From the sequence record PZ445453.1: a DNA stretch of 64,000 nucleotides, one strand, 5' to 3'. Position 1 is the first letter of the stretch, and every line of letters begins with the position of its first letter. The stretch comes from a phage. This document shows positions 401 to 52,300 of the stretch, in pieces. The notes beneath the pieces are model-generated. The model was not told where the DNA came from and ran no database searches. It saw nothing but the letters and a program-made list of their open reading frames with translations. Both the position numbers and the translations under genes were made by a program.

Positions 401-704
401 AGCTAATATTTGGAACATTGGCTATAATATAAGCTACATATAATAAGCTATTCAATAATAAACATCGTGAACAATGACATTGATGATCATAATGCGCCAC
501 CTTCCAGGGGACGCTATGTGAACACAAAGAAATCTTTCTTGTCAAGAAAAATATCACCATTATTGCGCAAAATTATTTATATCTGAATAGATGGTTTTTC
601 ATACTATTGCCCCATATAACCTATCATTTGTTGAGCCTATTCTCTTAAAAGCGCAATAAATCAGAATTATCTTGATTTTTAGGTAGTTTTATAGTATAGA
701 AAAT

Positions 705-913
705 ATGCAAATGATAATCATTATCAGCTATCTTCCACGGGTGGCACTATTTCACGCCAGATCATTTCATTTGGCAAGGTGTAGATAGATGTTTAGACTT
801 GCCAAGCCATTGATTTACTTAGAATTTATCTGTTTTGTTGTGAGTAGTACCTTTCTTGCTCAGAAAATAATCAAAAGTCTTATAAGTCATTGAATGATAA
901 TGCAAATGATAAT
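705..913. repeat. 14-bp direct repeat ATGCAAATGATAAT (705-718 and 900-913)
   Basis: Exact repeat read in sequence; both copies next to ATGATAAT-like half repeats. Confidence 0.55.
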
Positions 914-1042
914 AATTCTCATTGATATTTGAGGGGGACGGTCGGCAGAAATCGGGGGGCGCTGAAAATCGCGTTAAGCACCTCTCGCAAGCGAGCAGTA
1001 TTTTGCGGCAAGTTATTGATATTATTGGCTTTACGCTTATGA

Positions 1043-1131
1043 AAAGGGGTGTGTCGAAATAAATCGGGTATACCGGAAAATTTTTGTGGTATAGATATTT
1101 ATTTGTCTATATTATGTACAAAGGGGTGTGT
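1043..1131. repeat. direct repeat AAAGGGGTGTGT (1043-1054 and 1120-1131)
   Basis: Exact 12-mer twice, each followed by (C/T)(G/A)AAA(A)TAA, just upstream of the first ORF. Confidence 0.5.
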
Positions 1132-1224
1132 TAAAAATAATAGGTATATATAGAATAATTGATAGGGAAATCCTATACTAATTCCTCCATTAATGATGTT
1201 TCTATGTTACTGTCCTTGTAATAG

Positions 1225-1647
1225 ATGAAAAGACGCTATATGATGTGTGGCATGAAACGTAAATTTATAAAGGAGTCTGATATGTGTGTTCCTCTTAGCA
1301 GTCCACTGCTGTTAGAATTTTACAAAGCATGGATGGAAGATCATTCCTCAATGCATCGTGAGAATGTTGGTTTGTGTAATTGCCTTATGGATTACCTGGC
1401 AACCACTATGTCAAAGAAAAAACCTACGGAAGAAGATATAGAATATTTCAAGATGGTTCGTAGCAAAACGCTGGAAGAGATGAAACTGCAATTCACGTGT
1501 GCTGGGCTATCCTCCTTCCTACCCTTTAATTATGATCTTCTGTGTTATGAAGATGAAGGTAAGACACATTCTTGCCATACCAACCCAAAGAGATTGCAGT
1601 GGGTGAAAGATAGAATCGAAGATGCAAATAATGCTTGCATTGAATAG
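1225..1647 (+). CDS. hypothetical protein, paralog family A member 1
   Basis: 140-aa ORF; shares LLxFY...GLCxCL...PFN...KRxxWVxDR pattern with 3575..3943 and 4567..5151. Confidence 0.55.
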   Translation: MKRRYMMCGMKRKFIKESDMCVPLSSPLLLEFYKAWMEDHSSMHRENVGLCNCLMDYLATTMSKKKPTEEDIEYFKMVRSKTLEEMKLQFTCAGLSSFLPFNYDLLCYEDEGKTHSCHTNPKRLQWVKDRIEDANNACIE

Positions 1648-1717
1648 AAATGTCTGTACACTGTGTTCCATAAGATATGCAATATCGCGCATAACAAACT
1701 ACTAATGAGAGGTGTAA

Positions 1718-2176
1718 ATGAAAACTGTATCTTTGTATCTTGCTAACACGGAGCGTGTACATAATCTTGTAAAAGAATGCGGTGTGAGTGTTCAATTTAA
1801 CATAGGAAAGCCTTCCGTGGTGACAGGCAGTGAGATGTGTGTTATTGATTTCCTCAATGAATATTTTCGTGGAAAACCTATTGCTCGTCACTTCATTCAA
1901 GAAATGCGAGATGTTCTACAGGATTATGAATTCTACCCAGAAATTTGTGAACGCTATGAAACGATTCTTAGTTCTGTAGAAGATCCAGATACTAGTGAAA
2001 CAGGTGCTTCCCACTTGCTGTGGATGTTGAATGAAATTCAGGATGGGTGTAATGGTATGTCTGAAACCAAACGCCATCGTTGGCTAGGCTATATTCAGGG
2101 TGTTATGGTTATGAAAAACCTTATTACAGTGAATGATGAACGTAACGCTACACGCCCCGTCTTTAATGGAGCATAA
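1718..2176 (+). CDS. hypothetical protein
   Basis: 152-aa ORF in co-directional packed block. Confidence 0.55.
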   Translation: MKTVSLYLANTERVHNLVKECGVSVQFNIGKPSVVTGSEMCVIDFLNEYFRGKPIARHFIQEMRDVLQDYEFYPEICERYETILSSVEDPDTSETGASHLLWMLNEIQDGCNGMSETKRHRWLGYIQGVMVMKNLITVNDERNATRPVFNGA

Positions 2177-2177
2177 C

Positions 2178-2393
2178 ATGAAAAGCATTAGGGTGTGTAT
2201 TGAAAATAATTGTGGCTATCTGGGGTTGACACACGTTGCTTTCCCTCTTATATTGGATGCCGATATAGCTTACAGCGGAGTTGCTTATGTGTCATTCAAG
2301 ACAATGAGCCAAGTACCTGGCTGGAATTGGGAAGTAGTTGATGTTGTTGAAGGAGAAGACTATGTTTTCCTTCCACACGAATATACTGTTTAA
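2178..2393 (+). CDS. hypothetical protein
   Basis: ORF trimmed to ATG at 2178 (GGAG 6 nt upstream, directly after upstream stop). Confidence 0.45.
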   Translation: MKSIRVCIENNCGYLGLTHVAFPLILDADIAYSGVAYVSFKTMSQVPGWNWEVVDVVEGEDYVFLPHEYTV

Positions 2394-2408
2394 AGAGAGG
2401 AAAAGAAG

Positions 2409-2591
2409 ATGGATAAACAAACTACCGTGTACTTAGTAACAAAGAATACCCTAGACTGGAACCAATGCAGCACTGTCCCTTACAAGATCTGTGCAACATT
2501 AGAACTAGCACAACGTGCAGAAGCAGAAGTGGATGCCATGCAAATGCAACACAGCTATGGTGAAATCATTCCTTTTACTATTGAACAATAA
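2409..2591 (+). CDS. hypothetical protein
   Basis: 60-aa ORF, RBS-like AGAGG upstream. Confidence 0.45.
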   Translation: MDKQTTVYLVTKNTLDWNQCSTVPYKICATLELAQRAEAEVDAMQMQHSYGEIIPFTIEQ

Positions 2592-2602
2592 GGATTTGTG
2601 TA

Positions 2603-3055
2603 ATGTTTGAAATTGGTAAAGTGTATCGTTTTAAGAACGCATCTTATATCCGTAAGTTTGCTAATGTGTCTGAGTGCAATAGCAGGATTGCTTCTTTCTT
2701 AGGTGATTCCTGTTTTCGTGTATTAGATGTGGATGACTGGTATGGTGTCACTTCTTTGCAATCCTTAGCAGGAGAGCAAGAAATTATCACTCAAAATGAA
2801 GGAGACTTTGTTCTGTGTTACACCTTGCTTGCAGAAGCTGAGTTTGAATACTTTGTAGAAGTATTAGAAGAAGCACCAAAAAGTAAGCATGAAGAGAAAT
2901 ACCTGCTTGTAGTGGATGGAGTTCCAATTGTGGAAACCATCTCCCGTGAGGAAGTTGAAAAAGAGGCAAAACGTTACAAGCTGGATCGTACACAGAGTGT
3001 AGTTGAAGTCTATTCTCTTGTTGGTGTTGCAGATGTTCATGTGAACATTGTATAA
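2603..3055 (+). CDS. hypothetical protein
   Basis: 150-aa ORF. Confidence 0.55.
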   Translation: MFEIGKVYRFKNASYIRKFANVSECNSRIASFLGDSCFRVLDVDDWYGVTSLQSLAGEQEIITQNEGDFVLCYTLLAEAEFEYFVEVLEEAPKSKHEEKYLLVVDGVPIVETISREEVEKEAKRYKLDRTQSVVEVYSLVGVADVHVNIV

Positions 3056-3269
3056 TATGTGTAATGATAGATACATTCTTCGTGTATCTGATAAGTCTCC
3101 TATGTTTGACTGGCGGGGCTGGTGGCTACTAGCTCCGATGCAAGGTCTGACAGACGTGGAAAAGGAGGCTTATGTGTATACAAAAGAAGAGATAGAAGAT
3201 AGCCTTTATTTGACAGATAACATTAAGAATGGTATCTTTGAGTGTAAATTGAAAGGAGAGGAAGAATGA
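3048..3269 (+). CDS. hypothetical protein
   Basis: 73-aa ORF, short overlap with upstream gene. Confidence 0.45.
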   Translation: MYNMCNDRYILRVSDKSPMFDWRGWWLLAPMQGLTDVEKEAYVYTKEEIEDSLYLTDNIKNGIFECKLKGEEE

Positions 3270-3565
3270 CTGTTACAGAAAAACTGCGTTGTATTGCAAA
3301 GCAAAGTGGAGAAGGTTTGTGGTTTCCTATTGATGAAGTTATTCAGGACTGTTACGATCAGGCTAAAACTGGCAAATACTCCAAAGCATTTAAACCATCT
3401 GTTTTCGGTTTGGATGACTATCCGACAAATGAACAAGCAAGGAAACGCCAAGTTGATTTGATTGATCTTGCTATGGAAGCACTACGGGAGCGTGGACTTA
3501 GTAAGGTGTATGCTTTAAACACCAAAGAGGGTTTTGTAGATTCAGTGATCGTAGACTGGCATTAA
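3266..3565 (+). CDS. hypothetical protein
   Basis: 99-aa ORF, ATGA-type overlap with upstream stop. Confidence 0.5.
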   Translation: MTVTEKLRCIAKQSGEGLWFPIDEVIQDCYDQAKTGKYSKAFKPSVFGLDDYPTNEQARKRQVDLIDLAMEALRERGLSKVYALNTKEGFVDSVIVDWH

Positions 3566-3574
3566 GGAGCAGCC

Positions 3575-3943
3575 ATGCAAGAGAATAATAAAGTGTGTAA
3601 CATGAAAAGCAGCCCCTATTTGCTACAATTTTATGAGTGGTGGTTGGAACAAGAAGATACAAACTTTAGCAAAAAGCACTATGGTCTTTGCACGTGTCTT
3701 GTAGACTTCTTATACAACATTGCTTGGATAAAAGATGTTGAAAATGTATCAAAACTCCAATCCTCTGTACGAGAGGAAATGAAGGAACAGTTTAAGAAAG
3801 CGGGTTTGAACCATTTACATCCATTTAATACAGATTTCTCACATTACTTTACAGAAACAGAGTTAGGCATTGCACACCTTAACAAAGAACGTGTACAATG
3901 GGTGATTGATCGTATTCGTGATATGGAGGAATACAATGGTTAA
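3575..3943 (+). CDS. hypothetical protein, paralog family A member 2
   Basis: 122-aa ORF; family A motifs (LLQFYEWW, GLCTCL, HPFN, ERVQWVIDRI). Confidence 0.55.
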   Translation: MQENNKVCNMKSSPYLLQFYEWWLEQEDTNFSKKHYGLCTCLVDFLYNIAWIKDVENVSKLQSSVREEMKEQFKKAGLNHLHPFNTDFSHYFTETELGIAHLNKERVQWVIDRIRDMEEYNG

Positions 3944-4154
3944 GTTTAAAATTTTCTGTGCAATTACTGTTTGTCTTATTCTTGCATACGTATTATTCTC
4001 TAATATCATCCGTTTAGGTGAGTATATGGCAAGAGAAGCTCGTGAAAGCGAAGCTAAAAAAGAACAGTGTATTGTGTTCAAGCATCAAAGAGATGCTGAA
4101 AAGTTTCTCGCACTTGATTGCAATCGTTATGTATCTTATCAAATGTATAAGTAA
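3936..4154 (+). CDS. small membrane protein, paralog family B
   Basis: Start moved to ATG 3936 after GGAGGA; N-terminal hydrophobic helix; C-terminal KHQRDAEKFLALDCNRYVSY resembles 8648..8872. Confidence 0.45.
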   Translation: MVKFKIFCAITVCLILAYVLFSNIIRLGEYMAREARESEAKKEQCIVFKHQRDAEKFLALDCNRYVSYQMYK

Positions 4155-4163
4155 GGAGGATTT

Positions 4164-4388
4164 ATGGTAAAACGTCTGGAATGGGATGCGTGTACTGCTC
4201 ACGCTTGTCACTGCGATATTGTGGAAGATCCTAATGGAGAAATGGTGTATTATGAGGATTACGAAGCATTGCATAATGCTGTGATCGCTTTACTGGATGA
4301 TATTAGCTCTCGCTATCCAGGACAACAATTTACGTGTCCACACATTCAACTGTTAGCTAAACTTACGGAGTATCCAAGTGTTCCATAA
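4164..4388 (+). CDS. hypothetical protein
   Basis: 74-aa ORF with GGAGGA RBS. Confidence 0.5.
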   Translation: MVKRLEWDACTAHACHCDIVEDPNGEMVYYEDYEALHNAVIALLDDISSRYPGQQFTCPHIQLLAKLTEYPSVP

Positions 4389-4389
4389 T

Positions 4390-4557
4390 ATGGGTGTCCC
4401 TGAACAACTCCTCTTTATTGTAGGACTAGTAGGCTTATTGGCGGCTGGCGCTAAAGCCGCTTCTCACACGCATCACATAATGTTAAGATTTCTATTCCTG
4501 CTCCCTTCTATCCTCGTGTTATTAGTCATACTGATCGATAATATTTTGCACAATTAA
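4390..4557 (+). CDS. small hydrophobic protein (sub-threshold ORF)
   Basis: 55-aa ORF not in supplied track; two hydrophobic stretches; fills intergenic gap. Confidence 0.3.
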   Translation: MGVPEQLLFIVGLVGLLAAGAKAASHTHHIMLRFLFLLPSILVLLVILIDNILHN

Positions 4558-4566
4558 GGAGAGGTT

Positions 4567-5151
4567 ATGAGTAAAATTATACCAAGCAGTTATGAATTAT
4601 TACAGTTTTATGTATATTATATAGACTGGGTTACTAGATCAAATGTTAAAGACAATGCGATGTTTAGTAAAAACATCTGTTTAACAGAAAGTATCTTCCG
4701 TTACTGGCACACAGGCAGAAAGTGTACACACAGTGAAGCTATGCGCATTGTAGGTGAATACCTAGAGCAATTGCAAAAAGCAGAACTTCCTGTCCTTCAC
4801 CCATTCAATGAATCTAAAGAAGAATTAGAACAAGAGTGTAGGGAAGGTAAATGCCATTTGAATGAAAAACGTATTGAATGGGTAAGGCAACGTTTAGCCG
4901 ATGCAGGAAAGTCTCCTAGTGACTCTGACTATACGTGGTACGATGTAGAGGGTTTAGTTCAAGGTTTTGAGGCTTGTGCTATAAATAATACCAACTTTGC
5001 CAAAGTTTTATGCGAGGTTTATGACCTGGCAGATAAAATCCGAAATCAAGGATGGAAACAAGAGCATAAAGAATCATATGAACGCCTTGACAAGATTTTC
5101 AAACAGATCTATTCTAACCACAAAGAGATGTTCCAAATGGAGGATGTGTAA
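4567..5151 (+). CDS. hypothetical protein, paralog family A member 3
   Basis: 194-aa ORF; family A motifs (LLQFY, ICLTE, HPFN, EKRIEWVRQRL). Confidence 0.55.
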   Translation: MSKIIPSSYELLQFYVYYIDWVTRSNVKDNAMFSKNICLTESIFRYWHTGRKCTHSEAMRIVGEYLEQLQKAELPVLHPFNESKEELEQECREGKCHLNEKRIEWVRQRLADAGKSPSDSDYTWYDVEGLVQGFEACAINNTNFAKVLCEVYDLADKIRNQGWKQEHKESYERLDKIFKQIYSNHKEMFQMEDV

Positions 5152-5837
5152 TGAAAGAGATTATGTTTGAAGGGCATCGTTACGAAGTTCCAGACAATGC
5201 AAATTTCATGGCTCGTGATATCACTGGGGATGTGTTCTGGTTTGAAGATGAACCTGTGTTTTCTTCGAACAAACACTGGTTTTCACAACAATCTTCTTCG
5301 GAAAATATGACTTTTGGCTACGTAGAGCCTAAAGTACGTTGCAAAGCAGCTTCTTCTTTGGTAAAAATTTCTCAAGATGATCAAGAAAATACTCAAGATG
5401 TTGTTAGTGCACTACTGAAGTACATTGCAGAACTTGAGAAGAAAGTTAAAGAAGCAGAAACTAAAGTGAAAGCACGATCAGCAATCATCGAAACTATGTC
5501 TGAACGTATTTTAGAACTGGAAGATTTGTGTGGAGAGGCTTATCAAGTGGTTGGTGCACTGGCTTGTGAAGCAGAAATGTTTGAAACTTCAGAACAAGTT
5601 TCACATATGTTAGATAATTTAAGTGAATGTAAAATGATTCATGATGATGTATTGCCATTTTGTTGCAATGTTAACAAAACAGAGCAAACAGAAGATTCAG
5701 AAACAGTTTATGTTCCGCTGATGTGTGTTCCAGATCATCTAAAAGGTGTATTCTCTTGTAAATGGTCACTGTTGAGCGTTACCAACTGTGGTGAAAACTA
5801 TTCTGCTAACATTGAATTGCTAAAACACGTTAAATAA
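5151..5837 (+). CDS. hypothetical protein
   Basis: 228-aa ORF; central predicted coiled coil. Confidence 0.55.
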   Translation: MKEIMFEGHRYEVPDNANFMARDITGDVFWFEDEPVFSSNKHWFSQQSSSENMTFGYVEPKVRCKAASSLVKISQDDQENTQDVVSALLKYIAELEKKVKEAETKVKARSAIIETMSERILELEDLCGEAYQVVGALACEAEMFETSEQVSHMLDNLSECKMIHDDVLPFCCNVNKTEQTEDSETVYVPLMCVPDHLKGVFSCKWSLLSVTNCGENYSANIELLKHVK

Positions 5838-5847
5838 GGAGAGTAAG

Positions 5848-6252
5848 ATGTGGTCTGTTAAAATCAAATATAATGCACAGTATTATGGTGGACAACCTTA
5901 TGAAGTTGTTATTTGTGACTGTATCTCTAAAGAAGTTGCACAGCTTTGTGGCGCTGGCGTTAGTGAAGCTATGAACAAAATGCATAACTCGACTGTGCGT
6001 TACCTGGATCAAGATATTCCAGAAGATGTAAATGACTATGCTTACGAAGTTATTTACAGTGAAGGTAAGAAGCTCTCTATTGAAGATGCACTTAAAGCAC
6101 TACCTGCTATGTGCAGCCCAACACCAGAAGCAGTTAAAGAGATTTTACCAGAATCCAACCCCGATGAATATGCCTCTATGGTTGCTTCAGATATGTGGAA
6201 TCTCTGTCGAGAAACTATGATTAAAAATCTTGTGGAAATGGCGCATGAGTAA
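5848..6252 (+). CDS. hypothetical protein
   Basis: 134-aa ORF. Confidence 0.55.
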   Translation: MWSVKIKYNAQYYGGQPYEVVICDCISKEVAQLCGAGVSEAMNKMHNSTVRYLDQDIPEDVNDYAYEVIYSEGKKLSIEDALKALPAMCSPTPEAVKEILPESNPDEYASMVASDMWNLCRETMIKNLVEMAHE

Positions 6253-6463
6253 AACACACTTTATACATCCGTTTGATCCAAAGAACAAGGCTGTTATACA
6301 CCGCCGTTGGACTGAAACGCGCATTACGAAATGTCCTGTGCCAGCAGCACAGGAATATAACAAAACATATAAAGCAGAATTTGTGGAGTACACCTTTATA
6401 AATAACAAAGGGAAGGAGGTTTATGTTCCAGAATACTGCCTTTGGATAAAATGGGAGGAATAA
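6245..6463 (+). CDS. hypothetical protein
   Basis: ORF trimmed to ATG 6245 overlapping upstream stop. Confidence 0.4.
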   Translation: MSKTHFIHPFDPKNKAVIHRRWTETRITKCPVPAAQEYNKTYKAEFVEYTFINNKGKEVYVPEYCLWIKWEE

Positions 6464-6630
6464 TGCAAACATTTTTTATCGACAAGTTCAATAAAAATAT
6501 GAACACGTGGATGGCAACATTCACTATGCAATTTGCGTCGTTTAAAGAAGCTCAAGAATGGTGCGATCAACACAAGGATTTTGATTTTTACTATCAAATC
6601 AATCTGAATCTCTCTCCAGAGGAGAAATAA
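6463..6630 (+). CDS. hypothetical protein
   Basis: ORF trimmed to ATG 6463 after GGGAGG. Confidence 0.4.
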   Translation: MQTFFIDKFNKNMNTWMATFTMQFASFKEAQEWCDQHKDFDFYYQINLNLSPEEK

Positions 6631-6631
6631 T

Positions 6632-6976
6632 ATGTTGGCTGATATTGAAATCCTTATGTACCGACAAGGTATGATCAAAATGTGGCTGGACTCTTTTAGC
6701 AACATATACAGCACAGTGCGATCAGCAGAGGAGCGTAAAACGCTTATTTTATCTGCTATTGTTGATAAACAACGTTTCTTCAAAGAAGTTTTGCAAACAG
6801 GCTTCTCCGATGCAGGAGTAGAGATTGCAACTCTTAGTCTTGGGGTGCTGTCTTACTTGGAGTCCGTTGTTTTATATGTCTTCTCTTTAGAAGAAGACTT
6901 GCAATTTGAAGCATTAAAACTTATCTTAGATGCTGCAATTGACATAGAACAAAATCGAATTGATTCTTTTGAATAA
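6632..6976 (+). CDS. hypothetical protein
   Basis: 114-aa ORF. Confidence 0.5.
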   Translation: MLADIEILMYRQGMIKMWLDSFSNIYSTVRSAEERKTLILSAIVDKQRFFKEVLQTGFSDAGVEIATLSLGVLSYLESVVLYVFSLEEDLQFEALKLILDAAIDIEQNRIDSFE

Positions 6977-6992
6977 AAATAAGGAGAAAACT

Positions 6993-7451
6993 ATGCAAGA
7001 GGTTAAACATTATCCACATGGTCGTAGTTTTGTAGCTGTATGGCATGTTCCTGCTCGTAATGAACTGTTTTGTGCATCTTTTCATTACAAAGATGGACAA
7101 TATTTCACCTATGACGAGACGATGGATGATTTTATCCCAGAGTGCGATCATGGGTATACACCAATGTTCTTTAAACGTATGAAAGCTCGTTTCTTCGTTA
7201 CAGATGTTGATGGTGAACCTACTTGGCACATCGAAGAAGATTGGCAAGATTCTGTGGATATTAAAGAAGCCCCAGAATGGGCTACACTACTGGTACACGT
7301 GAAAACCCCTACCCTTGACATTATGGCGTGGGTTAATCATGATGATACCCATTACCAATACATAAACAGTAGCACAGAGATTTCTGGTGAGATTATTGGT
7401 CGTTGGAAGCCTACGAATCAGGTTGCTATTGTCGGATATAAGGCAGTATAA
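6993..7451 (+). CDS. hypothetical protein
   Basis: Start at ATG 6993 after AAGGAG. Confidence 0.5.
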   Translation: MQEVKHYPHGRSFVAVWHVPARNELFCASFHYKDGQYFTYDETMDDFIPECDHGYTPMFFKRMKARFFVTDVDGEPTWHIEEDWQDSVDIKEAPEWATLLVHVKTPTLDIMAWVNHDDTHYQYINSSTEISGEIIGRWKPTNQVAIVGYKAV

Positions 7452-7452
7452 T

Positions 7453-7647
7453 ATGAAAAGTAGCGTAGATTGGGATGATTTATCCGCTTTTGAAAAATGG
7501 TTCTTAGGTAGTGGTTGTTATGCAGATGGGGATCTCGAAAGAGATCCTTCTGGAAACTACATTATGCCATTAACCCAAGGTTTTTATGAGTGCTGGTGCG
7601 CAGCACAAAACAACGTACTGAATAAGGAGACAACACAATGCAATTAA
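7453..7647 (+). CDS. hypothetical protein
   Basis: ORF trimmed to ATG 7453 directly after upstream stop. Confidence 0.4.
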   Translation: MKSSVDWDDLSAFEKWFLGSGCYADGDLERDPSGNYIMPLTQGFYECWCAAQNNVLNKETTQCN

Positions 7648-7877
7648 ACATCGGACAACCAATTTTTGATGCAGATACTGGTCAATATGCAGTGATTGTT
7701 GCTCGTATGAGCGGTGATGACTTTATTGTTTCAGAACTACTGGAATCAGATCCGCAACTGCGTGTGGTTTGTGACCTATATCTTCGAGACGAAAGTGATC
7801 GCATTGCACTGAAAGAAGATGGTATGCTTTACTACACCTGGACTAGAGATCCTGGTGTAAAGGAGGTAGAGGTATAA
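7638..7877 (+). CDS. hypothetical protein
   Basis: 79-aa ORF with AAGGAG RBS. Confidence 0.5.
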   Translation: MQLNIGQPIFDADTGQYAVIVARMSGDDFIVSELLESDPQLRVVCDLYLRDESDRIALKEDGMLYYTWTRDPGVKEVEV

Positions 7878-8176
7878 TGGTAAGGAATAGGGGTTTACAT
7901 AAAAGAAGACACCTTACTTACTGGCATCGCAAAGTACATGAACCTGTATCAAAGAAAGAATGGCAATACCTGCCTTATGGAAAGGAGCGAAGGAAGTATT
8001 TGTTAGCTCATTTAAGAGTACATGGTTCGCTTCCTGTTAACAGTAAGTGGCAATTGCAAACAGTTTATGACGAAGATATGAAATATCTGTTAAAGAGAGG
8101 CATTATTTGCCTTGTTAAGATAGGACGATGGAAATCTCGTCAATCTTATATCGTACTTAAACAGGAGAAACCATGA
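7877..8176 (+). CDS. hypothetical basic protein
   Basis: 99-aa ORF, Lys/Arg-rich. Confidence 0.5.
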   Translation: MVRNRGLHKRRHLTYWHRKVHEPVSKKEWQYLPYGKERRKYLLAHLRVHGSLPVNSKWQLQTVYDEDMKYLLKRGIICLVKIGRWKSRQSYIVLKQEKP

Positions 8177-8424
8177 ATATCAAAGATGTTGTAGCATATG
8201 TAGAAGATGAAGTTAAAAACCATACAAGTTTACTGAAAGTAATGGTTGTGGTTAAAAATGGCATTGGACAAGTAAACGTACAACATGTCTTATCTGATAC
8301 TGTATATAATGTGTTTGAATGTAAAGACACACCTCATGGAGTACGTGTGGTGTATATTGATAACAATTTCAAAGAATGTGTGAGACATACCTTAGAAAAT
8401 GAACTAAGGATCACAATCTTATGA
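8173..8424 (+). CDS. hypothetical protein
   Basis: 83-aa ORF, ATGA overlap. Confidence 0.5.
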   Translation: MNIKDVVAYVEDEVKNHTSLLKVMVVVKNGIGQVNVQHVLSDTVYNVFECKDTPHGVRVVYIDNNFKECVRHTLENELRITIL

Positions 8425-8594
8425 GTTATTATGTTGTACCCTATGCCAATAAGTGGAGAGTAAGAGAAACTTGTTTTCTATTCTCCTGGTGGGCTACGTT
8501 CGGAGATGGTTGTGGAAATGATACAGGGAAGCCTGTAGAGTATGACACAAAAGAAGAATGTGAACAGTGGATAAAATTAACACAAAGATGTTGA
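8421..8594 (+). CDS. small Cys-containing protein (sub-threshold ORF)
   Basis: 57-aa ORF not in supplied track; ATGA overlap with upstream gene. Confidence 0.3.
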   Translation: MSYYVVPYANKWRVRETCFLFSWWATFGDGCGNDTGKPVEYDTKEECEQWIKLTQRC

Positions 8595-8647
8595 CACGAT
8601 CTTAACTTCTTGTTAGTATCAATATGTACTAACGATAAGGAGGGTTT

Positions 8648-8872
8648 ATGAAGTCTGTAAACAAGTTGCAACAATTTTTGTTATCAACAGCAATCTTTTT
8701 GCTTTTGTTAATTGGTATTCTGTATGGTGCATCTAACTTATACAATCTACACAACAATGTAGAACATAATATAGAGAAGTGCACCATCCTAAAACACAAT
8801 AAACAAGCAGAAGATTTCTTAAAGAATAAGTGTTACAATTACATTGATTATGAGGAGACAAACAATGATTAA
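8648..8872 (+). CDS. small membrane protein, paralog family B
   Basis: N-terminal TM helix; KHNKQAEDFLKNKCYNYIDY resembles 3936..4154. Confidence 0.5.
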   Translation: MKSVNKLQQFLLSTAIFLLLLIGILYGASNLYNLHNNVEHNIEKCTILKHNKQAEDFLKNKCYNYIDYEETNND

Positions 8873-9107
8873 ACAATTAGGGATGCGAGTATACAGTGAG
8901 TGGACTCCAAGCAATGGCCCAGGAGTTGTTGCAGCTAAATGTATCAATGGTCGTATTGAGTACCTGGAAGGTTATGAAGATAATGAAGAGTTAGTAGATT
9001 ATGCTAAATCTTTTATTGAAGATGATACAGACTTTATTGTATTGTATGATACAGGAGAGTTAGAGTATGGATATGATGGAGATGGGGATATCTTTGAACT
9101 TCAATAA
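8865..9107 (+). CDS. hypothetical acidic protein
   Basis: ORF trimmed to ATG 8865 after GAGGAG. Confidence 0.45.
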   Translation: MIKQLGMRVYSEWTPSNGPGVVAAKCINGRIEYLEGYEDNEELVDYAKSFIEDDTDFIVLYDTGELEYGYDGDGDIFELQ

Positions 9108-9125
9108 GAGTAGTAAGTAAGATAT

Positions 9126-9174
9126 AAAGAGTATATAGTTAGTTATAGAGTTAGTAACATTACATATACTCTTT
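9126..9174. repeat. intergenic inverted repeat (AAAGAGTATAT ... ATATACTCTTT)
   Basis: 11-bp arms read at 9126-9136 and 9164-9174. Confidence 0.5.
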
Positions 9175-9314
9175 CCATGTATAACATGGAATATTCTCTA
9201 CCTCGCTATCGCTCGGTATATAAGATTAGGGTAGCATGTTTTTTACGAAAAGTAAAACTGTTTGTACCGATTGATAGCAGGTTTTTAATAGATTTTATCT
9301 ATGAGGAGTAGAAA

Positions 9315-9533
9315 GTGTACAAATTATATAAAGCAAAAGATAAGTTTACGGGTAATACATCTGGTTTCTATGTAACACCACGAGGTGTTGCTGTATTTGA
9401 TTGGATCTCTGGTACTCCAGATCGTGAAATGATCTCTCTTGTAAAACTGTCAGAACAAGAGTACACTTACGGTGACATTACAACATTCTATTCTCGTGCA
9501 GAGAATCCAAAACTGATTGCGGAGTGGGAATAA
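9315..9533 (+). CDS. hypothetical protein (GTG start)
   Basis: 72-aa ORF, GAGGAG RBS upstream of GTG. Confidence 0.45.
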   Translation: MYKLYKAKDKFTGNTSGFYVTPRGVAVFDWISGTPDREMISLVKLSEQEYTYGDITTFYSRAENPKLIAEWE

Positions 9534-9796
9534 TGGTTACACGATATGGTTTAGAGGTGTACAGCCAAGGTGCTGCTGGTCAATGTGATATTGTACCAGA
9601 TCCAGAGGGGGATTATGTTCTTCTTGCTGATTACAATAAGCTAGAAGAAAGACTTCTGGCTGTGTATGCTAAAGAGAACAAAACAATCTGTCCTTATTGC
9701 AGTGGAATGGGTTGGGTGGTTGCAGATGTTGGACAAATGTATGAATGTGTACCTTGTAAAACCACAGGATTTATTGAAAAGGATACTGACAAATGA
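9533..9796 (+). CDS. hypothetical protein with CxxC...CxxC
   Basis: CPYCSGMG...CVPCK zinc-ribbon-like spacing. Confidence 0.45.
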   Translation: MVTRYGLEVYSQGAAGQCDIVPDPEGDYVLLADYNKLEERLLAVYAKENKTICPYCSGMGWVVADVGQMYECVPCKTTGFIEKDTDK

Positions 9797-10041
9797 CTGT
9801 AGCAGATAAAATGAGAGAACTGGCAGAAAACGCAGAACTTAACAAAGCAAAGGAGAGTTTACAAAATATCTACGCGTATATTGAGAGAGCAGCTAAAGAT
9901 GGGGACAGAGAAGTTGCTATATACACGCTTTATCCAACTTTTGTAAAAGTTAGCTTGGATGCTGAAGGTTTTTCAACTTTTATTGATACAGAAACATCTC
10001 ATTACGATGAAAACTTTACTCGAATAGTTATTCGATGGTAA
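9793..10041 (+). CDS. hypothetical protein
   Basis: 82-aa ORF, ATGA overlap. Confidence 0.5.
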   Translation: MTVADKMRELAENAELNKAKESLQNIYAYIERAAKDGDREVAIYTLYPTFVKVSLDAEGFSTFIDTETSHYDENFTRIVIRW

Positions 10042-10146
10042 ATTTCTGACATTTATGCGCCCTGGCTACCTGGGCGTAATAAATTCAGTTTATATTTGAT
10101 CCGCGCCTTCGGCGCTTAGGCAAAGCCACGCCACATAGGAGAGTTT

Positions 10147-10557
10147 ATGTTCAAATGGTTAAAAGGGTTTCTAACATCTTTGGCAGAACCTAAGCAAGAT
10201 GTTATTAAAAGCTCTATCACAGGAAAACCGCTTGTTATCGTTACAGGCGGCTTTGGTCATGGGTTTTCCCTTAAACAAACAGATATAGGTTTACAGGGAT
10301 GTTTGATTAGTTTTAGAATCACTCAATTAGGAGACAACAGACAAACAATCTTAGATCTTTTCAATGGAGAGTTTGATGATTATTTATCTAAGAGTGATAA
10401 AGAACGTCTGATCGAGCATATAAAACACCGCTATGAACGTGGTGGTTACTATCTAGAGACAAAACGTAATTCACAAGGTAATCTTGACATAGTTAGCACA
10501 GCGTGGGATAATGAATTTAAAACTAAACTTGGTAAACTTCTGGAGGAGTTATGGTAA
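10147..10557 (+). CDS. hypothetical protein
   Basis: 136-aa ORF with GGAG RBS. Confidence 0.5.
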   Translation: MFKWLKGFLTSLAEPKQDVIKSSITGKPLVIVTGGFGHGFSLKQTDIGLQGCLISFRITQLGDNRQTILDLFNGEFDDYLSKSDKERLIEHIKHRYERGGYYLETKRNSQGNLDIVSTAWDNEFKTKLGKLLEELW

Positions 10558-10733
10558 ATATTAAAACAGGTGATATTGTACGTCTTGCCAGTGAAGAAAT
10601 GTTAATGACTGTAATGGTATCTACTTATGATACTTGCGAAGTGGTGTGGTTTGATGTTAATGAGCAACTACAGAAAGCTACATTTGATAAACGTATGCTT
10701 CGTAAAGTTGAAGAAGTGAAGGAGGAAGAATAA
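10551..10733 (+). CDS. hypothetical protein
   Basis: 60-aa ORF. Confidence 0.45.
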   Translation: MVNIKTGDIVRLASEEMLMTVMVSTYDTCEVVWFDVNEQLQKATFDKRMLRKVEEVKEEE

Positions 10734-10734
10734 T

Positions 10735-10947
10735 ATGACAATGTTGCTTCGTGTTTTTGTGTTTCTTATGTTCTGGATTATCGTTGGTAACGGTATCGTA
10801 TTTTTGATTTTTCCTGAAGTAATGACAGGTAATGAAAATAAAGCCGTGCCTTACATTATGCTTATTGGTTACGGTATTGGTACACTTGGACTACTGTTTG
10901 CTGATTGGTTGGTCAATACTTTGTTCTCTAAGTACAGGAACAACTAA
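10735..10947 (+). CDS. small two-TM membrane protein
   Basis: 70 aa with two hydrophobic helices. Confidence 0.5.
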   Translation: MTMLLRVFVFLMFWIIVGNGIVFLIFPEVMTGNENKAVPYIMLIGYGIGTLGLLFADWLVNTLFSKYRNN

Positions 10948-10948
10948 T

Positions 10949-11221
10949 ATGTCGGAAAAATTACCTAACGTCTTCTTTTGTTTTGTAGACTGTGTTACAC
11001 AAGAAATTATAGTTGACGAAGAAGGTATGTTTACCTATTTTGCATCTGAAGAAGAGGCAAAACTATCAGCTATGAAATGTATAAGCCAATTGTCAGTACC
11101 TGCTGTCAACAGGTTCGGTATTGCACAGGTGTATAAAACAGTAACAGAGTTTACACCAGAGCGAAAACTAACTTTTCTTAACGTTCACTTTGTTTGTAAG
11201 TTTAGTGAACTACGACATTAA
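10949..11221 (+). CDS. hypothetical protein
   Basis: ORF trimmed to ATG 10949. Confidence 0.4.
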   Translation: MSEKLPNVFFCFVDCVTQEIIVDEEGMFTYFASEEEAKLSAMKCISQLSVPAVNRFGIAQVYKTVTEFTPERKLTFLNVHFVCKFSELRH

Positions 11222-11234
11222 ATCAGGAGTAAAA

Positions 11235-11834
11235 ATGAAAGAATATTGGAGTGGTGAGAAGGGCTTGCTAAAGCCAGGAATGCTTTTGCGAGTAAAGAAC
11301 ATGTTGATCACACAAGATTACATAATGCCTAATCCTGGAACATTAGTAGAATTCCTTACTGCACGAGATCAACCTGGGGTTGGTGAAATGTGGATTGTAA
11401 CATGGATATCTCTCGATGGTAAATTGCGCGTTGCTCCTATTGACCCAAAACACTTGGAATCTCCTTACGCCAGCATTGATTCTCGGATCATAGATTTGGC
11501 TAGAGTTTATAAGGCTAGGACTGGTGTAGAATTAGATGTAGAAATTTTAAATCAATGTATTGACTTCTTACCTGAAAAAGTGCATAATGCACAACAAGAA
11601 GATAGCGGTTTAGAAGTTATTCTTCTGAATGATGGGATGTTCTCTGGTCTGGCATCTGTAGATTTTCCAATAACATTAAGATTGTTACCTGGGGAATACG
11701 TACTGGATGACACTACTATTGCTATATCCTCTAAAATTTTAGAACTCATTCCAGGTGCAAGGTGTGTTGGTGATACATCTTCCTTGCTGTTTACCCTGAA
11801 TGAAGAAGCCATTATAGTTAAAAAGGAGAAGTAA
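11235..11834 (+). CDS. hypothetical protein
   Basis: Start at ATG 11235 after CAGGAG. Confidence 0.5.
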   Translation: MKEYWSGEKGLLKPGMLLRVKNMLITQDYIMPNPGTLVEFLTARDQPGVGEMWIVTWISLDGKLRVAPIDPKHLESPYASIDSRIIDLARVYKARTGVELDVEILNQCIDFLPEKVHNAQQEDSGLEVILLNDGMFSGLASVDFPITLRLLPGEYVLDDTTIAISSKILELIPGARCVGDTSSLLFTLNEEAIIVKKEK

Positions 11835-11990
11835 ATGATGACGTTTATTGTTGGTGTTGTTGTTGGTTATTTTGGTCACAAGTACCAAGATGTTATCATC
11901 GCTAAAGTTGACGAAGTAATCGAAAAATTTAAACACTAATTTTCTAAAAGGCTGTACTATTGTGCAGCCTATCTTTCAAAGGAGAGTAAA

Positions 11991-12164
11991 ATGTTCAAAG
12001 ATACCAATTATAAATGTGTACATTGTGGTAAATCTTTTGGTGATCACCAAGCTAAAACATTCAATTGTCCACGAAAAGGGCGAGGTAGCTTTAAAGGTTT
12101 TAATCCATCCCACGTTTATTCTCCCAACTACGAGAAACCAGAAGAAGAAAAATTTGTAATCTGA
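11991..12164 (+). CDS. small C2C2 zinc-finger protein (sub-threshold ORF)
   Basis: 57-aa ORF not in supplied track; AAGGAGAG RBS; KCVHCGK...FNCPRKG. Confidence 0.35.
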   Translation: MFKDTNYKCVHCGKSFGDHQAKTFNCPRKGRGSFKGFNPSHVYSPNYEKPEEEKFVI

Positions 12165-12173
12165 GGAGGCAAT

Positions 12174-12461
12174 ATGGAACTAGTACAAGAAGTTTATGAA
12201 AAACTAAAAGAAGAGAATCTTGATTGGCCTGAACATGCTCTTATTGTCGTCAAAGATACTAATGGTGAAATAAAATTCTCAAGTGTAAGTGAAGATGATG
12301 TTGTTTTAAGTCCTACAGGATATTATATGAGAGGTGTTACGTGCCTATTCAACACCAAAGTGTATCCTGAAATTAAACTTAGTTACGGGGAACCTGATCA
12401 TCCAGAAATCGTTACACGTAATGAATATGAAAATTATTATTTTGCTCGTGAAAGCAAATAA
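12174..12461 (+). CDS. hypothetical protein
   Basis: 95-aa ORF with GAGGAGG RBS. Confidence 0.5.
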   Translation: MELVQEVYEKLKEENLDWPEHALIVVKDTNGEIKFSSVSEDDVVLSPTGYYMRGVTCLFNTKVYPEIKLSYGEPDHPEIVTRNEYENYYFARESK

Positions 12462-12469
12462 GGAAAACT

Positions 12470-12793
12470 ATGCAAAAAATAAACACTGGTTCTCGTCCTA
12501 AACAGAAGCAAACAAAAGCAAGGGTATCTTATGTTGATAACTCTTGTTATAATTTCAAAAATGTTAAAGAAGTTGTCATTGATGAAAAAGAAGGTTTGAT
12601 TCACATTTCATCTGAACGTTTGAAAGGTAGTGTTACTCTTCGTGAGAATGTATCTATACCTATGAAAGTTGTGGTTACACTTTGTGTTGATAAGCCAGAT
12701 GTTGTTAACTATTATGTGTTCCGTGATAGTTGTATTTCATCTCATAATAAGATTTTTAAATCTTCGCACGTTAAAACAAAACACATTGTATAA
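12470..12793 (+). CDS. hypothetical protein
   Basis: 107-aa ORF followed by terminator. Confidence 0.5.
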   Translation: MQKINTGSRPKQKQTKARVSYVDNSCYNFKNVKEVVIDEKEGLIHISSERLKGSVTLRENVSIPMKVVVTLCVDKPDVVNYYVFRDSCISSHNKIFKSSHVKTKHIV

Positions 12794-12798
12794 CACAT

Positions 12799-12822
12799 AA
12801 ACCCGCTTCGGCGGGTTTTCTT
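12799..12822 (+). terminator. intrinsic terminator
   Basis: CCCGC-TTCG-GCGGG hairpin then TTTTCTT. Confidence 0.7.
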
Positions 12823-12878
12823 GTATGTATGCTCTTCATCTGTTATAAACACTTTTAGCATAAACAATAGGAGGTATT

Positions 12879-13100
12879 ATGTCTGTAGTTGTAGAAGGTA
12901 GTATTGGTTTCTTAGTAGATAACCCTCACCCTTTCGTGGTTAAGGTTCATATTCAAGAAAAGGTAAGCAACAATACGTGGCTGTGCTTGTTAGATAGTAA
13001 GATACACTCTTATACAGAGGTTTATCTTCACACTTGGCAAATTGGTACGATAACAGCAGAGGATGAATTGATAATTGAACTATATGAACGAGATCTATAG
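12879..13100 (+). CDS. hypothetical protein
   Basis: 73-aa ORF with AGGAGG RBS. Confidence 0.45.
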   Translation: MSVVVEGSIGFLVDNPHPFVVKVHIQEKVSNNTWLCLLDSKIHSYTEVYLHTWQIGTITAEDELIIELYERDL

Positions 13101-50494: not shown

Positions 50495-50580
50495 GCAAGT
50501 GTGGTGGAATTGGTGATACACATTGTGCTTAAAACGCAACGCTTAAATGATTGAGGGTTCGAATCCCTCCACTTGCACCA
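50495..50580 (+). tRNA. tRNA-Leu (anticodon TAA), type II
   Basis: Perfect 7-bp acceptor, anticodon stem TTGTG/CGCAA loop CTTAAAA, 13-nt variable arm, T-arm GAGGG-TTCGAAT-CCCTC, CCA. Confidence 0.75.
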
Positions 50581-50621
50581 ATCTAGGCTTCAATTTAAAT
50601 AATATTTTTAGTAAAAATATC

Positions 50622-50650
50622 TTGACATCTACTTAGTTTTTTGTTATAGT
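50622..50650 (+). promoter_or_regulatory. sigma70-like promoter TTGACA-N17-TATAGT
   Basis: Read upstream of tRNA-like gene at 50662. Confidence 0.55.
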
Positions 50651-50661
50651 TATTGTGAAAA

Positions 50662-50743
50662 CGGGGTGTATCTCACCTGACTTCTAATCAGGCGTTAACC
50701 GAGTAATTGGAGTATGCAGGTTCGAATCCTGTCACCCCGACCA
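50662..50743 (+). tRNA. tRNA-like gene with Arg(TCT) anticodon arm, atypical
   Basis: Acceptor CGGGGTG/CACCCCG, T-arm GCAGG-TTCGAAT-CCTGT and CCA are canonical, but only 7 nt separate acceptor from anticodon stem and a 23-nt variable region follows. Confidence 0.4.
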
Positions 50744-50761
50744 AAAAGTTTTAAAAACTAC

Positions 50762-50791
50762 TTGACAAGCAAGATAGTTTTATGTTAGAGT
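50762..50791 (+). promoter_or_regulatory. promoter TTGACA-N18-(TG)-TAGAGT
   Basis: cTTGACAagcaagatagttttaTGtTAGAGT. Confidence 0.45.
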
Positions 50792-50806
50792 TAAAATATG
50801 ATAACG

Positions 50807-50896
50807 GGAAGGTAGGGCGCAGCGGTGCGCAACCAGGTTTGAACCCTGGCCCATTGTAGCGATACGGTGATGGTTCGACTCCATTATCTTCCTCCA
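50807..50896 (+). tRNA. tRNA-Ser (anticodon TGA), type II
   Basis: Acceptor GGAAGGT/ATCTTCC, anticodon stem CCAGG/CCTGG loop TTTGAAC, long variable arm, T-loop TTCGACT, CCA. Confidence 0.7.
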
Positions 50897-50941
50897 AATT
50901 CAATTAGTAACAGATTCAGGTTGTTTTGAATAATTAAAAAC

Positions 50942-51027
50942 GGTAGATTGGTGAAATGGTAGCCACAACAGTTTGCTAAACTGTCGTCGGAAACGGCGTG
51001 TAGGTTCAAGTCCTACATCTACCGCCA
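50942..51027 (+). tRNA. tRNA-Ser (anticodon GCT), type II
   Basis: Acceptor GGTAGAT/ATCTACC, anticodon stem ACAGT/ACTGT loop TTGCTAA, variable hairpin, T-arm GTAGG-TTCAAGT-CCTAC, CCA. Confidence 0.75.
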
Positions 51028-51166
51028 AGTTATCTTTAATGTAGCTTGTACTCTTACTTTAGCAGAGTAAATCTTCGGCAAGTGGCAGTAACCACTTTAC
51101 CGATATCCCATAGTCAAGTGCCGCAAACACTGGCTATTTTAAAGATAATTTATACGAGGAGGATGT

Positions 51167-51547: not shown

Positions 51548-51601
51548 GGCACTTGACTTTTAATCAAGGGAGCGAAGGTTCGAATCCTTCACGATGTACC
51601 A
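51527..51601 (+). tRNA. tRNA-Lys (anticodon TTT)
   Basis: Acceptor GCATCGT/ACGATGT, anticodon stem CTTGA/TCAAG loop CTTTTAA, T-arm GAAGG-TTCGAAT-CCTTC, CCA. Confidence 0.75.
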
Positions 51602-51606
51602 AACAC

Positions 51607-51693: not shown

Positions 51694-51700
51694 AATTAAA

Positions 51701-51785: not shown

Positions 51786-51864
51786 AATAGTGCTTGTAGA
51801 GTTAATAGAAACCTCTAGAATTTTCTAGAATTGTAGGTATCAAATCCTACCAAGCAAATATTTT

Positions 51865-51939: not shown

Positions 51940-51962
51940 ATTTTAACTCTAAAGGAGTATAT

Positions 51963-52286: not shown

Positions 52287-52300
52287 ATATCAAAAGCCTC

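What the first reader, a model, noticed from the sequence alone, without database searches (positions are those of the whole stretch)
3936..8872. Second small paralog pair: membrane-anchored proteins with a conserved C-terminal Cys motif
ORFs 3936-4154 and 8648-8872 each have one N-terminal hydrophobic helix and a matching tail (C.I(V/L)KH(Q/N)..AE.FL...C(N/Y).Y(V/I).Y). They may be membrane-targeted effectors such as superinfection-exclusion or lysis-timing factors.
Basis: seen in the sequence. Interest (0 to 1): 0.4.

Follow-up and report, generated by a model that had tools for sequence, protein, structure and literature searches.

The report
Paralogous small phage membrane proteins
Two small genes in the early region of a phi92-like E. 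coli phage are true, diverged copies of one phage-only family of about 70-residue membrane-anchored proteins with an invariant cysteine pair; the family is real and uncharacterised, and its function is only inferred.

Summary
The window is Escherichia phage JohannJBalmer (Bas62, Justusliebigvirus). ORFs 3936-4154 and 8648-8872 are the annotated genes bas62_0151 and bas62_0166, the orthologues of phi92 gp007 and gp022.

Their tails match far beyond chance: BLASTP E 2e-7, 0 of 20,000 shuffles, hhalign 95.6% probability. The match is in register, with Cys45 and Cys62 in both proteins.

They belong to one small family (phrog_15662 plus phrog_23204). An exhaustive profile search of 1.84 billion proteins found only 18 clusters. 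All examined loci are unidirectional arrays of small ORFs, and where the contig is long it is a ~150 kb phage genome or contig.

Every tabulated member is 61-80 aa, with one N-terminal hydrophobic helix, a charged linker, and a ~28-residue module with invariant E-x-C...L...C (C-x16-C). Copy number per genome ranges from 1 to 3.

No Pfam, NCBIfam, PADLOC, PDB sequence or PDB fold relative was found.

My best reading is an early-expressed bitopic inner-membrane protein, N-in and C-out, carrying a disulfide-stapled periplasmic helical hairpin that binds an envelope target. Superinfection exclusion or modulation of a host membrane protein (as MgrB does) are the likeliest roles. Topology and function are inferred, not shown. 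This is an ordinary but genuine orphan family of modest interest.

The parts
3936..4154 (+). ORF A, 72 aa (bas62_0151; orthologue of phi92 gp007; phrog_15662). It starts at an ATG 6 nt after GGAGG (3925-3929) and overlaps the stop of the upstream gene by 8 nt.
   Evidence: phrog_15662 E 1.6e-37; dN/dS 0.08-0.29 against phi92 and PD06, from few substitutions
3951..4010 (+). ORF A residues 6-25: the single uncharged hydrophobic segment, a predicted transmembrane helix.
   Evidence: Kyte-Doolittle 2.41; uncharged run of 20 residues; helical in the AlphaFold model, with pLDDT block means of 92 and 86 for residues 11-30
4062..4139 (+). ORF A residues 43-68: conserved C-terminal module E-x-C45...L58...C62...Y68.
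   Evidence: invariant and near-invariant columns in A2 and A3; the model shows the end of the long helix, a turn, then helix 54-59
8648..8872 (+). ORF B, 74 aa (bas62_0166; orthologue of phi92 gp022; phrog_23204). It starts at an ATG 4 nt after AGGAGG (8638-8643).
   Evidence: phrog_23204 E 6e-51; dN/dS 0-0.21; the phi92 record annotates a SignalP 3.0 signal peptide of 27 residues
8666..8731 (+). ORF B residues 7-28: hydrophobic segment, either a signal anchor or a signal peptide.
   Evidence: Kyte-Doolittle 2.41 at residues 10-28; two Lys before it and no Lys or Arg for 15 residues after it
8774..8851 (+). ORF B residues 43-68: conserved C-terminal module, in register with that of ORF A (Cys45, Cys62).
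8591..8619 (+). Sigma-70-like promoter site TTGACA-17-TAGTAT with TG upstream of the -10 hexamer. It lies in the 53-nt gap before ORF B. It is a consensus match only; activity has not been shown.
   Evidence: The scan as a whole finds no more promoter-like sites than shuffled sequence does (51 found, 50.6 expected), so the site's weight comes only from its position in the gap.
3575..3943 (+). Context only: the upstream gene (phi92 gp006 family, phrog_2510) overlaps the ORF A start. The same adjacency occurs in Phapecoctavirus Schickermooser. Its function is unknown.

Best explanation
ORF A and ORF B are two diverged copies (about 21-28% identity over the full length, 41% in the tail) of a phage-specific family of roughly 61-80-residue single-pass membrane proteins.

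Shown: they are real genes under purifying selection. They share one architecture, consisting of a short N-terminus that usually carries Lys or Arg, one hydrophobic helix of about 20 residues, a variable charged helical linker, and a conserved module of about 28 residues with invariant Glu-x-Cys, Leu and a second Cys exactly 17 positions later. Every locus examined places the gene in a unidirectional array of small genes; in phi92 that array begins next to the genome's left terminal repeat.

Inferred, step 1 (about 0.65): host RNA polymerase transcribes them early, and they insert N-in and C-out into the inner membrane.

Inferred, step 2 (about 0.6): DsbA oxidises the two cysteines, stapling the end of the long helix to the short helix that follows. 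This gives a mini-domain too small to fold stably otherwise.

Inferred, step 3 (about 0.5 that the target is an envelope component): this tethered periplasmic hairpin binds a component at the outer face of the inner membrane. I give about 0.25 each to two roles: (a) blocking genome entry or tail-lysozyme action of superinfecting phages, and (b) modulating a host inner-membrane protein, as MgrB does with PhoQ.

The copy number varies from 1 to 3, and the linkers diverge around a fixed module. That pattern fits diversification against variable partners.
For: Identity of the window and its genes.

Paralogy. A bridging member, P0035, matches A at E 1e-10 and B at E 4e-10.

Family definition: the exhaustive profile search found 18 clusters among 1.84e9 proteins. 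All are 54-83 aa except one 131-aa probable chimera. All 22 aligned members hit phrog_15662 and 21 hit phrog_23204.

Invariant features: E43, C45, L58 and C62. All 17 tabulated members have exactly two tail cysteines at a spacing of 17.

Selection: dN/dS 0-0.29, and the motif is retained at about 40% identity across genera.

Fold: AlphaFold pLDDT 79, helix 2-50, turn, helix 54-59. The B-type protein of phage VEcB superposes at TM 0.92.

Context: all loci are long unidirectional arrays of small ORFs, and where the contig is long it is a ~150 kb phage genome or contig. phi92's terminal repeat maps to window 634-976. A promoter-like site precedes B.

Topology hints: B has two Lys before the helix and none for 15 residues after it. 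The third copy in L008 has a 15-residue N-tail with Lys and Arg and an acidic C-flank. P0044 has an acidic C-flank with 6 acidic and 1 basic residue. From the flank counts, net charge is more positive on the N side in 14 of 17 members.

Precedent: MgrB is a bitopic N-in/C-out protein with two essential periplasmic cysteines (PMC10576120).
Against: No experiment bears on expression time, topology, disulfide formation or target.

Counting Lys and Arg alone (von Heijne's positive-inside rule), most members have more positive residues in the 15 residues after the helix (2-5) than before it (0-2). Two members have no charged N-terminus at all. A C-in orientation therefore cannot be excluded.

I could not read model coordinates, so Cys45-Cys62 proximity is not verified.

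The promoter scan finds no more sites than shuffled sequence does.

The fold is too simple for a structure search to say anything about function.

The conserved neighbour, gp006, gave no functional lead.
Confidence: 0.45

Rival explanations
1. The architecture is as described, but the orientation is opposite (N-out, C-in). The conserved module would then be a cytoplasmic, membrane-tethered peptide. Its two cysteines would be reduced, or would bind a metal across a dimer (2 x 2 Cys). It would act on a cytoplasmic host target at the membrane, such as a division, protease or transport component.
For: Most members have more Lys and Arg in the 15 residues after the helix than before it. Whole-tail Lys+Arg counts run from 5 to 10. 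P0037 and the Schickermooser protein have no charged N-terminus.
Against: His50 is replaced by Tyr, Gln or Lys in many members, so a monomer has no four-ligand metal site. ORF B, P0044, P0042 and the L008 third copy have acidic or uncharged C-flanks and a basic N-flank. Net charge difference favours N-in in 14 of 17 members (from the counts). The same phage's annotated i-spanin also carries a highly charged tail after an N-terminal anchor; its N-in/C-out orientation is assumed from what is known of Rz-type i-spanins and was not tested here.
Confidence: 0.25
2. Lysis-timing factors: antiholins of the T4 RI type. Their periplasmic domain would bind the holin and delay lysis.
For: The general shape is the same as RI: small, with an N-terminal anchor and a C-terminal soluble domain containing cysteines. 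RI's properties are from my own knowledge of T4.
Against: There is no sequence or fold similarity to any holin or antiholin family. The genes lie in the leftmost early-type array, about 46-50 kb from the annotated spanins, which are the only lysis genes I identified and sit just upstream of the terminase gene. I did not identify the holin of this phage.
Confidence: 0.07
3. Membrane-damaging toxins or pore formers in the manner of Hok/Gef or holins, used to shut down the host.
For: Small single-pass proteins with a cysteine-containing tail resemble Hok/Gef in outline. This comparison is from my own knowledge.
Against: There is no match to the Hok/Gef Pfam model or to any toxin model. The strongly conserved part is the soluble module and not the helix, which is the opposite of what is expected for a pore former. 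Early collapse of the membrane potential would harm the phage; this last point is inference.
Confidence: 0.08
4. The tail similarity is chance or compositional convergence between two unrelated short hydrophobic ORFs.
For: Only 27-33 residues align. Both ORFs are short and AT-rich.
Against: Shuffle p is about 2e-7. hhalign gives 95.6% probability. Cross-PHROG hits are significant. The register and Cys positions are identical. Intermediate sequences link the two. The AlphaFold models share a fold.
Confidence: 0.01

Closest known systems
PHROG families phrog_15662 and phrog_23204 (unknown function)
   Same: ORF A and ORF B are full-length members (E 1.6e-37 and 6e-51). Every family member tested hits phrog_15662 and all but one hit phrog_23204.
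   Different: PHROGs keeps them as two separate families with no annotation. Here they are shown to be one superfamily with a common module.
MgrB of Enterobacterales (47-aa inhibitor of the sensor kinase PhoQ)
   Same: [quoted passage not shown] Two conserved cysteines in that tail are essential and proposed to form a disulfide (PMC10576120). It is a model for how the family could work.
   Different: No sequence relationship was found: no Pfam hit at E <= 0.1-1. The cysteine spacing differs (C-x10-C against C-x16-C). MgrB is host-encoded. The tail here is longer and predicted helical. PhoQ binding was not tested.
T4 superinfection-exclusion proteins Imm and Spackle, and the T4 antiholin RI
   Same: All are small early-expressed phage proteins that act at the inner membrane or in the periplasm. 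Spackle and RI are exported. These properties are from my own knowledge and were not tested here.
   Different: There is no sequence or fold similarity. Imm has two membrane spans. Spackle has a cleaved signal peptide and a larger domain. No exclusion or lysis-inhibition phenotype is known for phi92-like phages.
HK97 gp15-type single-pass inner-membrane exclusion proteins
   Same: These are about 60-70-residue single-pass inner-membrane phage proteins that block DNA entry. This is from my own knowledge.
   Different: No homology was detected in any library. gp15 is a prophage moron, not an early gene of a virulent myovirus.
i-spanins (Rz type)
   Same: They have an N-terminal anchor and a charged helical periplasmic tail with cysteines. 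The phage's own annotated i-spanin, at window 54520-54951, has this shape.
   Different: i-spanins are twice as long and sit in the lysis and late region with an embedded o-spanin. Neither A nor B has such a partner or location.

Membership tests
phrog_15662 / phrog_23204 superfamily (this family) | Full-length match to the family profile | tested here: met
   A: phrog_15662 E 1.6e-37. B: phrog_23204 E 6e-51. Cross hits 1e-5 and 4e-6. 22 of 22 and 21 of 22 aligned members match the two PHROGs.
phrog_15662 / phrog_23204 superfamily (this family) | One N-terminal hydrophobic helix plus an E-x-C...L...C module with C-x16-C spacing | tested here: met
   all 17 tabulated members, including A and B, have this.
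MgrB (Pfam MgrB model) | Sequence match to the family model | tested here: not met
   No MgrB hit for A or B at E <= 1, or for 22 members at E <= 0.1.
MgrB (Pfam MgrB model) | N-in/C-out bitopic topology with a periplasmic disulfide | not testable with these tools
   Charge tallies are ambiguous. PhoA/GFP fusions and thiol trapping are needed.
T4 Imm / Spackle / RI and other annotated exclusion or antiholin families | Sequence match to the family model (Pfam, PHROGs) | tested here: not met
   Only unannotated PHROGs match. One member touches Pfam SieB at E 0.076, which is chance level.
T4 Imm / Spackle / RI and other annotated exclusion or antiholin families | Structural similarity to a solved structure | tested here: not met
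   Foldseek against the PDB gave 0 matches at E <= 10. The PDB sequence profile gave nothing better than E 0.007, to L-selectin, which is spurious. The fold is very simple, so this test is weak.
T4 Imm / Spackle / RI and other annotated exclusion or antiholin families | Exclusion of superinfecting phage, or delay of lysis | not testable with these tools
   Plating and lysis-curve experiments are needed.
Hok/Gef type I toxins | Sequence match to the Pfam Hok/Gef model | tested here: not met
   No hit.
Phage lipoproteins (Llp/Cor type, o-spanin) | Lipobox [LVI][ASTVI][GAS]C at the end of the signal sequence | tested here: not met
   B has no cysteine before residue 45. A has KIFC and ITVC inside the helix, and neither fits a lipobox.
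Spanins | Location in the lysis cassette with a partner spanin | tested here: not met
   The annotated i- and o-spanin are at window 54520-55186. A and B lie in the left early-type array.
Known anti-phage defence proteins (PADLOC) | Match to a PADLOC model | tested here: not met
   No hits at E <= 1.

The most novel reading that the evidence does not exclude
The family is a previously unrecognised class of early phage effectors. It is a membrane-tethered, disulfide-stapled periplasmic hairpin that binds a specific envelope machine from the periplasmic side. Candidates are the channel or tail lysozyme used by incoming myoviruses, a host sensor kinase, or a membrane-bound defence sensor. On this reading, the recurrent expansion to 2-3 diverged copies per genome reflects an arms race with variable targets.
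Probability: 0.25. Interest if true: 0.55.

Novelty: new variant of a known kind. Interest (0 to 1): 0.3.

Why it matters
Small single-pass proteins in the early arrays of large virulent phages are almost entirely uncharacterised. The few that have been studied (T4 Imm, Spackle, RI, HK97 gp15) control who can enter or when the cell bursts.

This family is compact and easy to synthesise. It has an obvious mutational handle in its two invariant cysteines and one invariant glutamate. It occurs in phi92-like and phAPEC8-like phages that are being developed for therapy because of their broad host range.

If it excludes other phages, it would matter for cocktail design. If it targets a host sensor or defence protein, it would add a new phage counter-measure.

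The practical result here is smaller: two PHROGs should be merged, the family is now defined, and a clear experimental plan exists.

Tried and rejected
- Word-indexed protein searches with A and with B found only close Justusliebigvirus relatives. The exhaustive profile search was needed to find the wider family.
- Pfam, NCBIfam and PADLOC gave nothing for A or B.
- The PDB sequence profile returned only spurious weak hits. Foldseek against the PDB returned 0 hits. BFVD returned only the family's own members.
- P0040, which has the B N-terminus fused to an unrelated tail, looked like a domain swap that might have revealed topology. It comes from a 920-nt scaffold and its tail matches no PHROG, so I treat it as a probable assembly chimera.
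- Literature searches on phi92, Justusliebigvirus, Phapecoctavirus and early genes or exclusion found no study of these genes. The phi92 genome paper is not held.
- A lipoprotein reading was rejected because there is no lipobox.
- A conserved signal-peptidase site was rejected because the end of the hydrophobic segment is not conserved across members. An uncleaved anchor is therefore the default, although phi92 gp022 carries a SignalP 3.0 annotation.
- A monomeric zinc site was rejected because His50 is not conserved.


Full report
**Where the window comes from.** Window bases 3500-9200 are 100% identical to Escherichia phage JohannJBalmer (Bas62, MZ501084.1). This is a Justusliebigvirus of the Stephanstirmvirinae from the BASEL collection. 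The same stretch is 96-98% identical to 55 further records, including phi92. The two ORFs coincide with the annotated CDSs bas62_0151 and bas62_0166, both labelled 'hypothetical protein'. They correspond to phi92 gp007 and gp022. The phi92 record gives gp022 a SignalP 3.0 signal peptide of 27 residues.

**Position in the genome.** phi92's left end, including its 343-nt terminal repeat, maps to window 634-1195. ORF A lies about 3.3 kb and ORF B about 8 kb into the leftmost array, roughly 1225-13100, where all genes are small and on the + strand. The window wraps the GenBank record. The annotated spanins and the terminase gene are at window 54520-57279.

- The ORFs translate to 72 and 74 residues. 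Each has a strong Shine-Dalgarno sequence (GGAGG, AGGAGG) and one hydrophobic segment of about 20 residues.
- BLASTP aligns residues 43-69 of one to 43-69 of the other without gaps, with 11/27 identities and E 2e-7.
- The Smith-Waterman score of 71 was never reached in 20,000 shuffles (mean 21-23, sd 4.3, maximum 56). The Gumbel p is about 2e-7.
- In a database of the 39 genes of the array the E-value is 8e-6.
- Each protein hits the other's PHROG.
- Subfamily profiles align at 95.6% probability, E 1.3e-8, columns 38-70 to 38-70.
- Both proteins have their tail cysteines at positions 45 and 62.
- No third copy is present in the window.

**They are genes.** Codon comparisons among JohannJBalmer, phi92 and PD06 give dN/dS of 0-0.29, though the counts are small. 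More tellingly, the protein motif survives at about 40% identity in Phapecoctavirus (Schickermooser gp016) and in a Klebsiella Stephanstirmvirinae phage.

**The family.** Word-indexed searches found only close relatives. An exhaustive profile search of 1.84 billion representative proteins found only 18 clusters at E <= 1e-3. These are 54-83 residues long, apart from one 131-residue sequence from a 920-nt scaffold that I treat as a chimera.
- In a 22-sequence alignment the invariant positions are Glu43, Cys45, Leu58 and Cys62. Lys49, Ala54 and Phe57 are nearly invariant.
- All 17 members tabulated have exactly two cysteines after the hydrophobic segment, always 17 positions apart.
- All 22 aligned members hit phrog_15662 and 21 hit phrog_23204. 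The two PHROGs are therefore one superfamily.
- P0035 bridges the two subtypes, matching A at E 1e-10 and B at E 4e-10.

**Context and copy number.** Every locus I retrieved is a long unidirectional array of small ORFs. Where the contig is long it is a ~150 kb phage genome or contig; the remaining loci are shorter fragments of 3-53 kb.
- Justusliebigvirus genomes carry two copies.
- Phapecoctavirus genomes mostly carry one.
- One metagenomic contig (L008) carries three copies within 13 kb, two of them in tandem.
- The upstream gene (gp006 family, phrog_2510, three paralogues in this window) overlaps the start of ORF A by 8 nt. The same adjacency occurs in Schickermooser but not in the more distant loci.
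- A further paralogue pair exists: gp008 at 4164-4388 and gp025 at 9533-9796. The order is gp006-A-gp008 ... B-three genes-gp025, which hints at an old segmental duplication.

**Structure.** AlphaFold2 on the family alignment gives mean pLDDT 79. It predicts one long helix over residues 2-50 (membrane segment, linker and the first half of the module), a turn, and a short helix at 54-59 followed by Cys62 and an extended aromatic tail.
- The BFVD model of the B-type protein from phage VEcB superposes at TM 0.92, and a Phapecoctavirus member at 0.74.
- Nothing in the PDB resembles it by fold or by sequence profile.
- Pfam, NCBIfam and PADLOC have no model for it.

**Mechanism: what is shown and what is inferred.** The architecture, family, conservation pattern and genomic setting are shown. 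Everything that follows is inferred.
- **Early expression.** The genes sit in the left array next to the terminal repeat. A TTGACA-17-TAGTAT site with an upstream TG fills the only sizeable gap before ORF B. The scan as a whole is no richer in such sites than shuffled sequence, so only the site's position gives it weight.
- **N-in, C-out orientation.** I put this at about 0.65. ORF B, P0042, P0044 and the third L008 copy have basic N-flanks and acidic or uncharged C-flanks. From the flank counts, net charge difference favours N-in in 14 of 17 members. Against this, Lys+Arg counts alone favour the opposite orientation in most members, and two members have no charged N-terminus. The phage's annotated i-spanin also carries a highly charged tail after an N-terminal anchor. 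If it has the N-in/C-out orientation known for Rz-type i-spanins, such a tail can be exported; I did not test that.
- **A disulfide staple.** A conserved module of about 28 residues is too small to fold alone. It has exactly two invariant cysteines at a fixed spacing that would flank the predicted hairpin. His50 is not conserved, so a monomeric metal site is unlikely. I could not read coordinates to check the Cys-Cys distance.
- **The target.** The conserved face (Glu43, Lys49, aromatic tail) on a membrane tether suggests binding to something at the outer face of the inner membrane. Two precedents frame the likely roles. One is early phage exclusion proteins (T4 Imm and Spackle, HK97 gp15; from my own knowledge). 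The other is MgrB, a bitopic protein whose two periplasmic cysteines are essential for inhibiting PhoQ (PMC10576120).

**Rival readings.**
- A C-in orientation with a cytoplasmic target remains a serious rival, at about 0.25.
- A lysis-timing role is unlikely. There is no similarity to holins or antiholins. The genes are about 46-50 kb from the annotated spanins, the only lysis genes I identified.
- A pore-forming toxin is unlikely, because the soluble module is the conserved part and the helix is not.
- Chance similarity is excluded.

**Comparison with known families.** The pair belongs only to the two unannotated PHROGs. It fails the sequence test for MgrB, Hok/Gef, SieB, every annotated PHROG and every PADLOC model. 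It also fails the fold test against the PDB, although that test is weak for so simple a fold. It has no lipobox and is not in a lysis cassette. It may well work like MgrB or like an exclusion protein, but it is not a member of any of those families.

**Verdict.** This is a genuine paralogue pair and a genuine orphan family. It is small and narrowly distributed, found in Stephanstirmvirinae and related ~150 kb phages of Enterobacterales. It was already catalogued without function, and it has a clear, testable architecture. It is of modest interest: useful for annotation and as a tractable candidate for early envelope-directed phage functions, but nothing here is surprising to a specialist.

Noticed in passing
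window 634-1195: phi92's left genome end (nt 1-565, including the 343-nt direct terminal repeat) maps here at 97% identity. The physical end of phi92-type genomes therefore lies inside the window. Window 1196-2408 is replaced relative to phi92 nt 566-1152.
   Followed up: partly
window 1282-1647, 3575-3943, 4567-5151: Three paralogues of the phi92 gp006 family (phrog_2510 / phrog_27059), with E 1e-24 and 5e-10 between them. The third has a C-terminal extension of about 75 residues. They are predicted all-helical with no informative fold match.
   Followed up: yes
window 4164-4388 and 9533-9796: Another paralogue pair (phi92 gp008 and gp025, E 3e-5) sharing CDIV.DP.G...DY..L. gp008 has a weak hit to a Lar-like restriction-alleviation PHROG (E 9e-4). 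The gene order gp006-A-gp008 ... B-three genes-gp025 hints at an old segmental duplication.
   Followed up: partly
window 4378-4557 (annotated 4390-4557): Another small, very hydrophobic ORF two genes after ORF A (phi92 gp009, given a signal peptide in the phi92 record). It may be a further membrane protein of the early array.
   Followed up: no
L008:2917-3129, 9146-9388, 9388-9600: A 13-kb contig assembled from a public sequencing run (Logan SRR13494276) carries three copies of the family, two of them in tandem. The copy at 9146-9388 has a 15-residue N-terminal tail.
   Followed up: yes
phage records MG065639, MG065645, MG065650, MG065689: Records named 'Campylobacter phage' A150, A145, B15 and A110a encode A- and B-type proteins 95-96% identical to those here (B15 is the phAPEC8 type), and four such records are among the >=95% DNA matches. 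The host label looks doubtful.
   Followed up: no
window 54520-55186; about 50500-53400: The window wraps the GenBank record: record position 1 is window 54520. The i-spanin and embedded o-spanin lie just before the terminase gene (55195-57279). A cluster of about 14 tRNA genes with a homing endonuclease lies upstream. No holin is annotated next to the spanins.
   Followed up: partly
L012 (ENA scaffold, 920 nt): P0040 joins the first 43 or so residues of the B-type protein to an unrelated 88-residue tail with no PHROG match. It is probably an assembly chimera and not a natural domain swap.
   Followed up: yes
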